DNA from: an uncultured Candidatus Rokubacteria bacterium
Lineage (GTDB): Bacteria > Methylomirabilota > Methylomirabilia > Rokubacteriales > CSP1-6
Assembly: GCA_963771355.1 (NCBI GenBank)
Contig: CAVYTA010000006.1
Location: 544,001 to 608,000 of the forward strand
DNA: 64,000 nucleotides
Reading direction: 5' to 3'
Positions 36,078 to 55,332 of the stretch are shown in pieces. Below the pieces are notes generated by a model. That model had not been told where the DNA came from. It saw nothing but the letters and a program-made list of their open reading frames with translations, and searched no databases. The stretch's first letter is position 1, and every line of letters starts with the position of its first letter. Position numbers and translations under genes: made by a program.

Positions 36078-36124
36078 TGCCTAGCGCCGAGGCATTTCCC
36101 GGACGGGTGCCCAATCTGTGTGCA
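36078..36124. promoter_or_regulatory. Tandem 17-bp NtrC-like enhancer boxes upstream of glnK
   Basis: TGCCTAGCGCCGAGGCA (36078) and TGCCCAATCTGTGTGCA (36108), 30 bp apart. Confidence 0.7.
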
Positions 36125-36157
36125 GGGATCGCCCCCTCCGCTTCTCGCATCGCCCTG

Positions 36158-36170
36158 TAAGTTCCTGATT
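36158..36170 (-). promoter_or_regulatory. IHF-like site between enhancer and sigma-54 promoter
   Basis: Minus strand AATCAGGAACTTA matches WATCARNNNNTTR. Confidence 0.55.
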
Positions 36171-36197
36171 TTCTGCCTTCCCCATGGCTTCCCCCTT

Positions 36198-36214
36198 GCG
36201 GCACGCAAGGTGCA
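36198..36214 (+). promoter_or_regulatory. Sigma-54 -24/-12 promoter of glnK-amtB
   Basis: CGGCACGCAAGGTGCA: GG-N10-GC. Confidence 0.7.
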
Positions 36215-36237
36215 TTTCCGGCCGCCGGGAGGGTGAC

Positions 36238-36576
36238 ATGAAAAAGATCGAAGCCATCATCAAGCCGTTCAAGCTCGACGACGTGAAGGAGGCCCTCACC
36301 GGCATCGGGGTGATCGGAATGACGGTCTCCGAGGTGAGGGGCTTCGGCCGTCAGAAGGGCCACACCGAGCTCTATCGAGGTGGCGAGTACACGGTCGACT
36401 TCCTGCCGAAGATCAAGGTGGAAGTCGTGGTACCCGACAACCTCGTGGACAAAGTAGCGGGCGTGCTCGCGGGCGCGGCCAAGACCGGGAACATCGGCGA
36501 CGGAAAGATCTTCATCACACCAGTCGACACGGCGGTCCGGATCCGTACCGGCGAACGCGACGAGAGCGCACTCTAA
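36238..36576 (+). CDS. glnK: Nitrogen regulatory protein PII
   Basis: [21 protein letters not shown]-loop YRGGEY, GDGKIF, RIRTGE; 112 aa; directly upstream of amtB. Confidence 0.95.
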
Positions 36577-36601
36577 AGCGCAGACGCGGCAAGGAGGATA
36601 C

Positions 36602-38098
36602 GTGGTGGTCAAAGGTGAACGGTGTCTCGTGATCGTGCTGTTGCTCACCGTGCTCGCGCTGGTGGGCACGTCGGCGTGGGCTCAGGCTCCGGCCACGCCT
36701 CCGGCGGCCGCGCCCGCGGCGGAGGCGCCCAAGGCCGACGCCCCCGCGGCAGCGGCTTCCGCGGCGGCGCCCGCCCCACCCAAGATCGACACCGGTGACA
36801 CCGCGTGGGTGCTCACCTCCACGGCGCTGGTGCTGCTCATGACGGCGCCGGGCCTCGCGCTCTTCTACGGCGGCATGGTGCGGCAGAAGAATGCCCTGGG
36901 CACGCTGATGCACAGCTTCATCATCCTGGCCCTCATCTCCATCCAGTGGGTGCTGTGGGGCTACACCCTCGCCTTCGGCCCCGACCGGGGCGGCATCATC
37001 GGGGGGCTCGACTGGATGGGCCTGCGCGGGGTGGGGCAGACGCCCAACGCCGACTACGCGGCCACCATTCCGCATCAGGTGTTCATGCTCTTCCAGATGA
37101 TGTTCGCCGTCATCACGCCGGCGCTCATCACCGGCGCCTTCGCCGAGCGGAAGAAGTTCTCGACCTTCATCGTGTTCATCCTGGCGTGGGCCACGCTCGT
37201 CTACGACCCGCTCGCCCACTGGGTGTGGGGCGTGGGGGGCTGGCTGCGCAACCTGGGGGCGCTGGACTTCGCGGGCGGGACCGTGGTCCACATCTCCTCG
37301 GGCATCTCCGCTCTCGCCGCCGCGCTCGTCATCGGCAAGCGAAAGGGATTCGGGCATCACCCGATGCCGCCGCACAACCTGCCCTTGACGGTGATGGGCG
37401 CGGGCCTCCTCTGGTTCGGGTGGTTCGGGTTCAACGCCGGCAGCGCGCTCGGCGCCAACGGGCTGGCCGGACACGCCTTCACCACCACGAACACCGCCGC
37501 GGCGGCGGCGGCGCTGGGCTGGATGTTCACGGAATGGAGCTCACGTGGCAAGCCCACCGTGCTCGGGGCGGCCTCGGGCGCGGTGGCGGGGCTGGTGGCG
37601 ATCACCCCGGCGGCCGGATTCGTCACCCCGCTGGCCTCGATCGTGATCGGCGCGGTGGCGGGGATCATCTGCTACAGCGCCTGCAACCTCAAGACGAAGG
37701 TCGGCTACGACGACTCGCTCGATGTGGTGGGCGTGCACGGGGTGGGCGGCACCTGGGGCGCGCTGGCCACGGGAATCTTCGCCACCAAGAGCGTGAACGA
37801 GGCCGGCGCCGACGGGCTTCTCTACGGCAATCCCAAGCAGCTGCTGTATCAGCTCATCGCGGTGCTGGTCACCATCGTGCTGGGCTTCGTGATGACCACC
37901 ATCATTCTCAAGGTCCTCGACGGGCTGATGGGCCTGCGCGTGAGCGACGAGGACGAGCAGGCCGGTCTCGATCTCTCGCAGCATTCGGAGACCGCCTACG
38001 CCCTCGGCGGAGGGACGGAGTATTCGCAGACGGGCGGCAGCGGCGGTGCCTTCGCGGAAGCCATGCGGGCGAGCGAGGCGAAGGCTCGCAGCCACTAG
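36602..38098 (+). CDS. amtB: Ammonium transporter
   Basis: [49 protein letters not shown]. Confidence 0.97.
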
Positions 38099-38105
38099 CG
38101 GGGAC

Positions 38106-53092: not shown

Positions 53093-53168
53093 GGGCCGCG
53101 GGGGTCTCAGGCTCCTGTGATAGCCTGCGCGGAGCCAGCATGACGCCTCATGAAGAAGGAGCAGGCGA

Positions 53169-53369
53169 ATGATCTCGTCCCCGCCGTCCGACGGAGAAGG
53201 GATGATGCGCTACGCGGAGCACGCGGCCGCGGCCATCGGTCTGCCCCTCGACCCCGCGCGGAAGGCGGCGGTGGTGCAGCACCTCGCCGTGATGCTCGCC
53301 GCCACCACGCTGGTGCTCGAGTTTCCGCTGCCGGACGAGGTCGAGGCCGCGCCGGTGTTCGAGCCGTGA
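53169..53369 (+). CDS. AtzG/HpxX-like small amidase partner (DUF4089-like)
   Basis: GLPLDP...LEFPLPDEVEAAPVFEP; overlaps amidase start. Confidence 0.75.
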   Translation: MISSPPSDGEGMMRYAEHAAAAIGLPLDPARKAAVVQHLAVMLAATTLVLEFPLPDEVEAAPVFEP

Positions 53370-54772
53370 CGCCGCCGCCGAGTCCGGCGACGCTCGCGGC
53401 GCTCGACGCCGTCGGCACCGCCGAGGCGGTCCGCGCCGGTCGGCTCGGCGCCCGCGACGCCGTGGAGGCCGCGCTGGCGCGAATCGCTTCGCTGGACCCC
53501 GCGCTCAACTGCTTCACCGCGGTGCTCGCGGACACGGCCCGCCGTGACGCGGAGGCGGTCGACGCGCGGGTGGCGCGCGGCGAGGATCCCGGCCTGCTCG
53601 CGGGGGTGCCCTTCGCGGTCAAGAACCTCTTCGACGTGGCGGGGCTCACGACGCTGGCCGGCTCGCGCATTCATGCGTCGCGCCCACCCGCGGCGCGGGA
53701 TGCCGCCGCCGTCGCCGCCCTGCGACGGGCGGGGGCCGTGCTGGTGGGCACGCTGAACATGGACGAGTACGCGTTCGGCTTCACCACCGAGAACAGCCAC
53801 TACGGTCCCACGCGCAATCCCCATGACCGGGAGCGGGTGGCGGGCGGCTCCTCGGGCGGCTCGGGCGCGGCGGTGGGCGCGGGGCTGGTGCCGCTCACGC
53901 TCGGCTCTGACACCAATGGGTCGATCCGCGTGCCCGCCTCCCTGTGCGGGGTGTTCGGGCTCAAGCCCACCTATGGCCGCGTCTCGCGGGCAGGGACCGC
54001 GCTCTTCGCAGGGAGCTTCGACCACGTGGGGCCGCTCGCGCGATCGACCCGCGACCTTGCCGCCGCCCTCGACGCGCTGCAGGGCCCGGACGCCGGTGAT
54101 CCGGTGGCGAGCCGCCGCCCCGCCGAGCCCTGCCGCCTCGAGCTCACGCGCGGGATCGCGGGGCTCCGCTTCGCGGTGGCCGACGGCCACTTCGCGCGCG
54201 GGGGCGAGCCGGCGGCGCTCGCCGCGGTGGGAGCGGTGGCGGAGGCGCTGGGCGCGCGGGACACCGTGACCCTGCCGGAGGCGCATCGCGCGCGCGCCGC
54301 CGCCATGATCATCACCGCGGCGGAGGGGGCGCAGCTCCATCTGCCGGATCTCCGGTCGCGGCCCGAGGAGTTCGACCCGTTGACCCGGGACCGGTTCCTC
54401 GCCGGCGCCCTCCTTCCCGCCACCGCCTACGTGGCGGCGCAGCGCTTCCGCGCGTGGTATCGCGCCCGAGTCGCCGAGCTCTTCGAGGGGATCGACGTCA
54501 TTCTCGCGCCCACCACGCCGTACCCGGCGCCCCGTATCGGCCAGGAGCGGATCACGGTGGCGGGGGCGGAGGTTCCGATGCGACCGACGCTCGGACTCTA
54601 TACCCAGCCGCTGTCCTTCATCGGGCTGCCCGTGATCACGGTGCCGCTGGCGCGGCAGTCCGGATTGCCGCTGGGCGTCCAGCTCGTCGCGGCGCCCTTT
54701 CGCGAGTCCTTCCTGCTGCGCACCGCCCACTATCTCGAGTCGGCCGGCGTGGTCGCGGCTCCCATCGCCTGA
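53366..54772 (+). CDS. AtzE/HpxY-family amidase (amidase signature)
   Basis: VKNLFDVAGLTTLAGS, NMDEYAFGFTTEN, GGSSGGS, GSDTNGSIRVP. Confidence 0.9.
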   Translation: MTPPPSPATLAALDAVGTAEAVRAGRLGARDAVEAALARIASLDPALNCFTAVLADTARRDAEAVDARVARGEDPGLLAGVPFAVKNLFDVAGLTTLAGSRIHASRPPAARDAAAVAALRRAGAVLVGTLNMDEYAFGFTTENSHYGPTRNPHDRERVAGGSSGGSGAAVGAGLVPLTLGSDTNGSIRVPASLCGVFGLKPTYGRVSRAGTALFAGSFDHVGPLARSTRDLAAALDALQGPDAGDPVASRRPAEPCRLELTRGIAGLRFAVADGHFARGGEPAALAAVGAVAEALGARDTVTLPEAHRARAAAMIITAAEGAQLHLPDLRSRPEEFDPLTRDRFLAGALLPATAYVAAQRFRAWYRARVAELFEGIDVILAPTTPYPAPRIGQERITVAGAEVPMRPTLGLYTQPLSFIGLPVITVPLARQSGLPLGVQLVAAPFRESFLLRTAHYLESAGVVAAPIA

Positions 54773-54781
54773 GCCATCCAC

Positions 54782-54817
54782 CAGCGACGCAGCCCCGTGC
54801 AGCGACGCAGCCCCGTG
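54782..54817 (+). repeat. Perfect 18-bp tandem duplication
   Basis: CAGCGACGCAGCCCCGTG twice, just before the SD of the next gene. Confidence 0.9.
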
Positions 54818-54828
54818 AGGAGGAAGCA

Positions 54829-55212
54829 GTGGACCTGAACATTCCCGAGGTCGTGGCCGAGGTCGGCGCCGCGTTCAACCGCTACGAGGCCGCGCTCACC
54901 ACCAACGATGTCCCCGCGCTGGACAGCTTCTTCTGGAACGACCCGCGCGTGATCCGCTTTTCGCTGTCCGACAATGGCTACGGCTTCGAGGCCATCATGA
55001 AGGCGCGGCGTGCGCGCAACAACGTGGACCTTCGGCGCCGGCTCATGCGCACCGTGGTCACCACCTTCGGCCGGGACTTCGCCACCGTGAACACCGAGTT
55101 CAAGCGGGAGGACTCCGGGCGCGAGGGACGGCAGAGCCAGACCTGGGTGCGGACCGCGGAGGGCTGGAAGGTCGTGAGCGCGCACGTGTCGTGGCTGACG
55201 CCGCCGTCCTGA
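54829..55212 (+). CDS. AtzH/HpxZ-like protein (DUF3225, NTF2-like)
   Basis: FNRYEAALTTNDV, LDSFFW, TFGRDFAT, GRQSQTWVR, SAHVS. Confidence 0.88.
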   Translation: MDLNIPEVVAEVGAAFNRYEAALTTNDVPALDSFFWNDPRVIRFSLSDNGYGFEAIMKARRARNNVDLRRRLMRTVVTTFGRDFATVNTEFKREDSGREGRQSQTWVRTAEGWKVVSAHVSWLTPPS

Positions 55213-55219
55213 CCCTTCC

Positions 55220-55332
55220 TGCACAAGATACGGGCTCCCTGCTGATCTCTTGAGCAGACGGCGGTACCCGTCTTACCACCATCCCGCCAAGCGGCTGATT
55301 TACTGAGCCTCCCCCTCGGCACATTGTTTGCT
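55220..55332 (+). promoter_or_regulatory. Enhancer boxes, IHF site and sigma-54 promoter of the stand-alone HTH gene
   Basis: TGCACAAGATACGGGCT (55220), TGCTGATCTCTTGAGCA (55240); IHF match 55288-55300 (minus AATCAGCCGCTTG); CGGCACATTGTTTGCT (GG 55318-19). Confidence 0.7.

What the first reader, a model, noticed from the sequence alone, without database searches (positions are those of the whole stretch)
36078..55332. Sigma-54 nitrogen regulon readable from sequence: five promoters with the same enhancer-(IHF)-promoter layout
Seen: GG-N10-GC promoters precede glnK (36200), the porin (39971), the ANTAR gene (41459), urtA (42189) and the stand-alone HTH gene (55318). Each has two 17-bp boxes of the form TGC-N11-GCA upstream (two boxes deviate in the last base): 36078/36108, 39718/39748, 41361/41391, 42089/42118 and 55220/55240. 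Four of the pairs are 29-30 bp apart. Four promoters also have a WATCAR-N4-TTR site (0-1 mismatch), always in the same orientation, 18-30 bp before the GG. Known: enterobacterial NtrC binds tandem 17-bp TGCAC-N7-GTGCA enhancers, and IHF often bends DNA between enhancer and sigma-54 promoter. Inference: this defines a lineage-specific NtrC-type motif (roughly TGCYY-N7-RRGCA) and an N-starvation regulon covering ammonium, urea and ureide scavenging in a poorly characterised lineage.
Basis: partly seen in the sequence, partly recalled or inferred. Interest (0 to 1): 0.75.

Follow-up and report, generated by a model that had tools for sequence, protein, structure and literature searches.

The report
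NtrC regulon carrying its own mini-NtrC
Five nitrogen-scavenging promoters in an uncultured Rokubacteria-type bacterium share conserved sigma-54 signals with standard NtrC-type binding boxes, and one lies in front of a small conserved protein that is only NtrC's DNA-binding end, which likely sits on the same boxes and would brake the nitrogen-starvation response.

Summary
Observation confirmed: all ten boxes, five GG-N10-GC elements and four IHF-like sites are where stated. A strict box precedes 55 of 62 orthologous promoters in relatives versus 2 of 331 other sigma-54-like sites, and the paired layout was found only in this cluster of the genome. The motif is not lineage-specific: it is the generic NtrC box TGC-N11-GCA. 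The likely activator is an unlinked NtrBC pair, not the adjacent bEBP at 34165. The new part is the 'stand-alone HTH' (55377-55658): a 93-aa NtrC C-terminal domain without receiver or ATPase, with NtrC's recognition helix, under purifying selection, one clade found only in one Rokubacteriales family. In 69 of 72 informative loci it has its own boxed sigma-54 promoter or directly follows a nitrogen-regulon gene, across many gene orders. Best reading (inferred, about 0.55): an induced competitor that caps NtrC output; a Fis-like helper or relay repressor is not excluded. A similar deleted NtrC precedes glnA in three deltaproteobacterial genomes, and this scan earlier noted a PII-linked mini-HTH on other DNA. 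The urtA leader also has conserved ANTAR-type hairpins. Binding and expression are untested.

The parts
36078..36124 (.). paired NtrC-type boxes (36078-36094, 36108-36124) for glnK-amtB-glnA
36158..36170 (-). IHF-consensus site, 0 mismatch
36200..36213 (+). sigma-54 -24/-12 element of glnK
36238..39652 (+). glnK (36238-36576), amtB, glnA (38228-39652)
39718..39764 (.). paired boxes (39718, 39748) for the porin; about 120 bp farther from the promoter than in orthologues
39971..39984 (+). weak sigma-54 element of the porin gene (non-consensus -12)
40096..41337 (+). BBP2-family beta-barrel porin
   Evidence: PF07642
41361..41407 (.). paired boxes (41361, 41391) for the ANTAR gene
41429..41441 (-). 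IHF-like site, 1 mismatch
41459..41472 (+). sigma-54 element of the ANTAR gene
41487..42083 (+). receiver-ANTAR protein; Ala at the usual phospho-acceptor position in 15 of 15 aligned copies (pseudo-receiver, inferred)
42089..42134 (.). paired boxes (42089, 42118) for urtA
42158..42170 (-). IHF-like site, 1 mismatch
42189..42202 (+). sigma-54 element of urtA
42223..42261 (+). two tandem hairpins with A1/G4 hexaloops in the urtA leader, ANTAR-target type
   Evidence: motif definition PMC3369931
42300..55212 (+). urtABCDE, ureABC-EFGD, AtzG-like, AtzE amidohydrolase, HpxZ
55220..55256 (.). paired boxes 20 bp apart (55220 weak, ending in T; 55240) for the mini-NtrC gene
55288..55300 (-). IHF-consensus site, 0 mismatch
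55318..55331 (+). sigma-54 element of the mini-NtrC gene
55377..55658 (+). stand-alone 93-aa NtrC C-terminal (Fis-type) DNA-binding domain, 'mini-NtrC'
34165..35535 (+). adjacent receiver-AAA+-HTH bEBP, syntenic with glnK in the family but probably not the activator of these boxes

Best explanation
This cluster is likely a standard NtrC/sigma-54 nitrogen-starvation regulon whose last promoter is predicted to make a mini-NtrC, an activator-less DNA-binding domain that would occupy the same boxes and cap the response. Shown: the boxes, promoters and IHF-like sites, their conservation, the gene identities, and that the 93-aa protein is an NtrC C-terminal domain with no receiver or ATPase. Inferred: NtrB-NtrC encoded elsewhere (genome contig C7, about 152900-155456, behind tsaD, no boxes of its own) senses low nitrogen through PII, binds the paired boxes and loops, IHF-assisted at four promoters, to sigma-54 polymerase; urea uptake and urease get a second, RNA-level control by the co-induced ANTAR protein acting on the urtA leader hairpins. 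Inferred and least certain: mini-NtrC dimers, which cannot contact or remodel sigma-54, compete with NtrC for the boxes (or poison it as mixed dimers), giving induced negative feedback; the weak, 19-21-bp-spaced pair in front of many copies would delay it until NtrC activity is high. Odds: regulon real 0.93; activator is the C7 NtrC 0.88; mini-NtrC binds the same boxes 0.8; net effect is a brake 0.55.
For: Boxes: 55 of 62 orthologous promoters with a sigma-54 pattern (of 70 loci examined) have a strict box versus 2 of 331 background sites; reverse IHF site 30 of 62 versus 8 of 331, forward 2 of 62 (kin are not independent). Activator: C7 protein is the best TIGR01818 match of 18 (546.9 bits, cut-off 558.6; the window bEBP 394.9), follows a kinase gene, and is the only one of 24 bEBPs with helix GINRNTLRKKL; boxes also precede amtB operons in G164, G169, G174, G189, whose best match to the window bEBP's C-terminus is 36-49 percent. 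Mini-NtrC: 53 percent identical to the C7 NtrC tail; GNQ and G-x-NRNTLRK 94-100 percent conserved in 71 distinct copies, covering the positions that Fis uses on DNA (N73, N84, R85, T87, R89, K90; PMC7166090 passage; alignment); four-helix model, pLDDT 88.7, best fold matches Fis (E 1.1e-3, none under 0.001); dN/dS 0.02-0.14 in 13 of 13 pairs; one clade 99/96. Context: of 79 loci, 7 are cut by contig ends, 32 have their own sigma-54 promoter with boxes, 37 directly follow a porin (14 plus 1 fragment), cyanase (9 by Pfam, 2 by analogy), ureD (4), TorF-like barrel (5) or ANTAR (2) gene, 3 are unresolved (L003 duplicates G128). Paired spacing 19-21 bp in 23 of 31. Parallel: an internally deleted NtrC lies between a sigma-54 promoter and glnA in 3 of 101 genomes of another phylum. 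Occupancy of NtrC sites by non-activating dimers represses glnAp2 (PMC5159524 passages).
Against: No binding, expression or TSS data. Metatranscriptome contigs were inconclusive. NtrC assignment is just under the family cut-off, and its kinase scores higher against AtoS than NtrB models, both under cut-off. The adjacent bEBP is kept next to glnK across the family. Family f4 and the other orders have the same boxes and NtrC but no mini-NtrC among listed matches, so it is dispensable. More than half of the copies lack the weak close-spaced promoter, so a delay is not general. Helix A differs from NtrC's (proline in 74 of 80 versus 0 of 35) and one helix position is R instead of K, so dimer geometry or specificity could differ. 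The sign of the effect cannot be read from sequence.
Confidence: 0.55

Rival explanations
1. Mini-NtrC is a Fis-like helper: it binds one box or flanking DNA, bends it or stabilises the NtrC oligomer, and so strengthens or tunes activation (positive feedback).
For: Closest solved structures are Fis; low-affinity NtrC sites can raise glnAp2 output at moderate levels (PMC5159524 passage); distinct helix A with conserved proline.
Against: IHF-like sites already fill the bending role; no conserved extra box between enhancer and promoter was seen; a dimer on a strong box excludes an NtrC dimer there (inference).
Confidence: 0.2
2. Mini-NtrC is a relay repressor that carries the nitrogen signal to other, sigma-70 promoters elsewhere in the genome (a role like Nac, recalled), with little effect on the sigma-54 enhancers.
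For: NtrC can repress through a single TGC-N11-GCA site without phosphorylation (PMC10746234 passage); 16 single non-coding boxes scoring 13 or more lie outside the cluster, one between a PEP-carboxylase-like gene (recognised by eye) and a divergent gene.
Against: Single boxes are not enriched over permuted matrices (23 non-coding versus 7-50); the strongest boxes are in this cluster; conservation of the outside boxes was not tested.
Confidence: 0.15
3. The adjacent bEBP (34165-35535), not the unlinked NtrC, reads the boxes.
For: It sits directly upstream of glnK in many family f1 genomes and has an intact GAFTGA motif.
Against: Its helix is GLRRPTLYSKM, unlike NtrC/Fis; the box is the published NtrC motif; boxes persist where its best C-terminal match is 36-58 percent.
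Confidence: 0.07
4. The layout is chance in GC-rich DNA, or the HTH gene is a decaying fragment of ntrC.
For: TGC-N11-GCA occurs 709 times in the genome; three of 30 permuted matrices gave 5-8 composite hits at the loose threshold.
Against: Position-fixed conservation in orthologues; dN/dS 0.02-0.14 and a family-wide clade separate from the intact ntrC of the same genomes.
Confidence: 0.03

Closest known systems
Proteobacterial NtrBC/sigma-54 regulon (E. coli glnAp2; S. meliloti; Methylomonas DH-1)
   Same: 17-bp TGC-N11-GCA boxes in tandem about 30 bp apart (32 bp at glnAp2), -24/-12 element, IHF-like site between them, glnK-amtB-glnA and scavenging genes.
   Different: Uncultured Methylomirabilota lineage; GC-richer inner bases; ntrBC lies behind tsaD with no box or sigma-54 element in 15 of 15 Rokubacteriales loci plus L005; paired sites found in one cluster only; regulon includes a stand-alone NtrC tail.
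Fis (stand-alone protein derived from the NtrC C-terminal domain; Morett and Bork 1998, seen only as a cited title)
   Same: Same four-helix fold and DNA-contact positions; about 40 percent identical to E. coli Fis over the matched part.
   Different: No dusB seen upstream in the loci annotated; placed in the nitrogen regulon; helix predicted from residue 3, no long N-terminal arm; separate clade in the best tree, though a joint clade with Fis is not rejected (p-AU 0.25).
Feedback and anti-activation of bEBPs: glnAp2 low-affinity sites, NfeR1 sRNA, FleN, NifL
   Same: Limit the output of a sigma-54 activator.
   Different: Those use extra cis sites, an sRNA, or protein-protein inhibition (FleN and NifL seen in search listings only); here the candidate is a trans-acting copy of the activator's own DNA-binding domain.
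ANTAR systems (EutV, NasR, AmiR)
   Same: Receiver-ANTAR protein with two tandem A1/G4 hexaloop hairpins in a downstream leader.
   Different: Target is the urea transporter-urease operon; no obvious terminator follows the hairpins in the folds; no partner sensor was identified.

Membership tests
NtrC/sigma-54 regulon | TGC-N11-GCA boxes upstream of -24/-12 elements, conserved in orthologues | tested here: met
NtrC/sigma-54 regulon | rpoN and a full receiver-AAA+-HTH NtrC with cognate kinase in the genome | tested here: met
   rpoN over cut-off; NtrC 547 bits versus cut-off 558.6, kinase upstream, both just or well under curated cut-offs
NtrC/sigma-54 regulon | target genes serve nitrogen assimilation or scavenging | tested here: met
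NtrC/sigma-54 regulon | induction under N limitation, TSS about 12 nt after the GC, NtrC binding | not testable with these tools
   only assembled contigs of mixed communities were available
IHF-assisted sigma-54 promoter | IHF consensus between enhancer and promoter; IHF genes present | tested here: met
   30 of 62 versus 8 of 331; ihfB-like over one cut-off, ihfA-like 107.5 versus 111; not at the porin
bEBP (for the 93-aa protein) | AAA+ domain with GAFTGA | tested here: not met
   HTH_8 only; no AAA+ upstream in frame in the stand-alone loci
Fis (for the 93-aa protein) | four-helix Fis fold and DNA-contact residues | tested here: met
   G86 of Fis is N here, as in NtrC
Fis (for the 93-aa protein) | dusB-fis operon context (recalled as typical) | tested here: not met
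   upstream genes are nitrogen genes or its own sigma-54 promoter; NCBIfam Fis models 54-58 bits versus cut-offs 99 and 122
Fis (for the 93-aa protein) | common descent with proteobacterial Fis | tested here: inconclusive
   separate clades in the best tree; joint clade not rejected, p-AU 0.25; 82 columns only
ANTAR target RNA | two tandem hairpins with A1/G4 hexaloops | tested here: met
   13 leaders, 86.7 percent cells paired, two-sided changes in 4 pairs of hairpin 1, none in hairpin 2; loop 2 starts with G in 2 of 13
ANTAR target RNA | overlap with a terminator or ribosome site and ANTAR binding | tested here: inconclusive
   no clear terminator in the folds; binding untestable here

The most novel reading that the evidence does not exclude
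Bacteria have repeatedly split off NtrC's DNA-binding domain as a small gene wired into NtrC's own regulon, making a microprotein-style negative feedback on a sigma-54 enhancer; the Rokubacteriales mini-NtrC and the deleted NtrC before deltaproteobacterial glnA are independent cases and show the step by which a Fis-like protein can arise from NtrC.
Probability: 0.4. Interest if true: 0.78.

Novelty: new variant of a known kind. Interest (0 to 1): 0.6.

Why it matters
The regulon itself is textbook, but it gives a testable map of nitrogen control in a widespread uncultured soil and groundwater lineage. The mini-NtrC would be a form of sigma-54 control (an induced, DNA-level competitor made from the activator's own domain) that I did not find in nine literature searches, is easy to test with purified 93-aa protein, and bears on how Fis arose from NtrC.

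Tried and rejected
Lineage-specific motif: rejected, it matches the published NtrC motif. Adjacent bEBP as activator: disfavoured. Split activator (mini-HTH serving an HTH-less bEBP): rejected, all 24 bEBPs have a C-terminal HTH-like tail, one in a shifted frame. Further regulon members elsewhere: no other paired site; 14 single-box composite hits outside the cluster, of which seven were inspected and showed no recognisable nitrogen gene. ntrBC autoregulation: no boxes in Rokubacteriales ntrBC loci, with or without mini-NtrC, so loss of autoregulation does not explain the gene's distribution. Expression: contigs from four rhizosphere RNA runs of one study cover the region, but two cross the predicted starts (42195 onward, 55242-55491) and DNA carry-over cannot be excluded, so no conclusion. 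Origin of the mini protein: trees of 82 columns do not resolve it (p-AU 0.25 with Fis, 0.35 with Rokubacteriales NtrC, 0.21 with the deltaproteobacterial form); in the 145-row quick tree one long outgroup branch fell among the mini proteins. Dimer prediction and the protein atlas were not available, so dimerisation is untested. One review could not be read.

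
Full report
Observation. Every element named is in the sequence: ten 17-bp boxes (eight exact TGC-N11-GCA), five GG-N10-GC elements, four IHF-like sites on the minus strand ending 17-29 bp before the GG. 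The motif alone is common (709 in the genome) and single boxes are not enriched over permuted matrices, but the layout is specific: the only three exact pairs at 29-30 bp are here, an untrained regex gave 4 hits, all here, and a matrix built from 101 boxes of relatives (own genome and its near twin G002 left out) gave 4 composite hits, all here; 30 permuted matrices gave 0-2 at box score 7, while at score 5 three of them gave 5-8. The porin promoter scores poorly and has about 120 bp of extra spacer.

Organism and genes. The closest named relatives of the HTH protein are Ca. Rokuibacteriota and Methylomirabilia records, so the genome is most likely a Rokubacteriales member. The promoters precede glnK-amtB-glnA, a BBP2 porin, a receiver-ANTAR gene, urtABCDE-ureABC-EFGD-AtzG-AtzE-HpxZ, and a 93-aa HTH_8 protein. 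rpoN and IHF-like genes are present.

Conservation. Boxes also occur before amtB operons in some genomes of other orders (6 of 23 loci had a box with a promoter scoring 11 or more; flanks were only 1.5 kb).

What reads the boxes. The consensus TGCY-N9-RGCA is the generic NtrC site: TGC-N11-GCA in S. meliloti (PMC10746234, passages), TGCACCAnnnTGGTGCA in E. coli (PMC8743547, passages), similar in Methylomonas (PMC12799797, passages) and Fis-like in Caulobacter (bioRxiv 2023.06.06.543975, passages). Of 24 bEBPs, one on contig C7 is the best NtrC match (546.9 bits, cut-off 558.6) and alone has the helix GINRNTLRKKL; the neighbour at 34165 has GLRRPTLYSKM. The neighbour is syntenic with glnK across the family, which keeps it as a minor rival, but boxes persist where it has no close match. 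ntrBC lies behind ctpA-tsaD without boxes in all 16 such loci examined. IHF's role in looping is from PMC2709558 (passages).

The mini-NtrC. The HTH gene is 53 percent identical to the tail of the C7 NtrC and folds as four helices, closest to Fis. The positions Fis uses on DNA (PMC7166090, passages) are 94-100 percent conserved in 71 distinct copies; it differs from NtrC by an invariant K-to-R change in the last helix and a proline in helix A. dN/dS over the 48-codon core is 0.02-0.14 in 13 pairs. Twenty sampled copies form one clade (99/96), apart from the intact NtrC of the same genomes. All 77 handle genomes in which I fetched it belong to family f1; listed matches in other families and orders were in frames of about 480 aa or more (38 and 59 weaker matches were not listed, and I did not fetch every short-frame hit). 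Of 79 loci, 7 are cut by contig ends; 32 have their own boxed sigma-54 promoter, 37 directly follow a porin, cyanase, ureD, TorF-like barrel or ANTAR gene, and 3 are unresolved (two cyanase calls are by analogy, one locus is a duplicate). The gene thus moved repeatedly yet stayed in the regulon. In 23 of 31 paired promoters the boxes are 19-21 bp apart, the distal one usually ending off-consensus.

Mechanism. Without receiver and AAA+ domains the protein cannot activate sigma-54 (established knowledge). If it binds the boxes as a dimer, as the isolated NtrC tail is recalled to do, it would displace or dilute NtrC~P after induction. Non-activating occupancy of NtrC sites represses glnAp2 at high levels but can help at moderate ones (PMC5159524, passages), so the sign is an inference: brake 0.55, helper 0.2, relay repressor 0.15.

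Parallels. Prompted by an earlier unchecked note of this scan (PII-linked mini-HTH in Smithella-like bacteria), I searched 101 genomes of the phylum of a deltaproteobacterial record. Of 15 short-frame loci fetched, three hold a 110-130-aa protein that begins like a receiver domain and ends in an NtrC tail, between a sigma-54 element (boxes within 450 bp in two) and glnA, near amtB-glnK in two. It does not group with the Rokubacteriales protein in the best tree, but a joint clade is not rejected (p-AU 0.21). I did not check the Smithella loci themselves.

Second layer. The urtA leader has two hairpins with A1/G4 hexaloops, the ANTAR target motif (PMC3369931, passages). In 13 of the 18 leaders printed (five longer or mis-anchored ones left out) 86.7 percent of cells pair, with two-sided changes in hairpin 1 only. 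The ANTAR protein has Ala at the usual phospho-acceptor position in 15 of 15 copies.

Literature. Nine searches of the open library listed no study of nitrogen regulation in Rokubacteria and no regulon-embedded stand-alone NtrC tail; only top listings were seen and most subscription papers are not held. The NtrC origin of Fis (Morett and Bork 1998) was seen only as a cited title. No supplements were read.

Verdict. Real and conserved; the regulon is a new member of a known kind, the mini-NtrC a new variant whose function is inferred. Interest 0.6.

Noticed in passing
window 42223-42261: Tandem A1/G4 hexaloop hairpins in the urtA leader, conserved with covariation; likely target of the adjacent pseudo-receiver ANTAR protein.
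   Followed up: yes
window 38106-38134: A sigma-70-like -35/-10 pair with a 17-bp spacer between amtB and glnA, which could give basal glnA expression; conservation not checked.
   Followed up: no
window 41459-41487: The ANTAR start codon is only 28 bp after the GG (28-36 in most orthologues), so its mRNA would be nearly leaderless; many mini-NtrC genes show the same.
   Followed up: no
window 34165-36064: A bEBP of unknown target and a stand-alone receiver protein with a sigma-54-like element (score 10.2) sit upstream of glnK; the bEBP linkage is kept across the family.
   Followed up: partly
L316:2341-2751, L317:2489-2902, L318:4049-4390: Internally deleted NtrC (start of receiver plus tail) between a sigma-54 promoter and glnA, after an about 890-aa gene that looks like glnD (recalled, not tested).
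   Followed up: partly
L324-L328: 270-300-aa proteins with an NtrC-type HTH_8, no AAA+ hit, one with a GAF hit; another activator-less form.
   Followed up: partly
G000 C5:768733-768849: A second stand-alone HTH_8 frame (105 aa) with an unrelated recognition helix.
   Followed up: no
G000 C4:153992: A strong single box overlapping a sigma-54-like element between a PEP-carboxylase-like gene and a divergent gene (both recognised by eye).
   Followed up: partly
G000 C6:773691-775129: A bEBP whose HTH lies in a shifted frame (frameshift or assembly error).
   Followed up: no
L210 (G094): Two identical ANTAR-mini-NtrC copies about 1 kb apart, duplication or assembly artefact.
   Followed up: no
window 27617-34080: F420 biosynthesis (cofG) and F420-dependent oxidoreductase genes plus an HU-like gene upstream of the cluster.
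   Followed up: no
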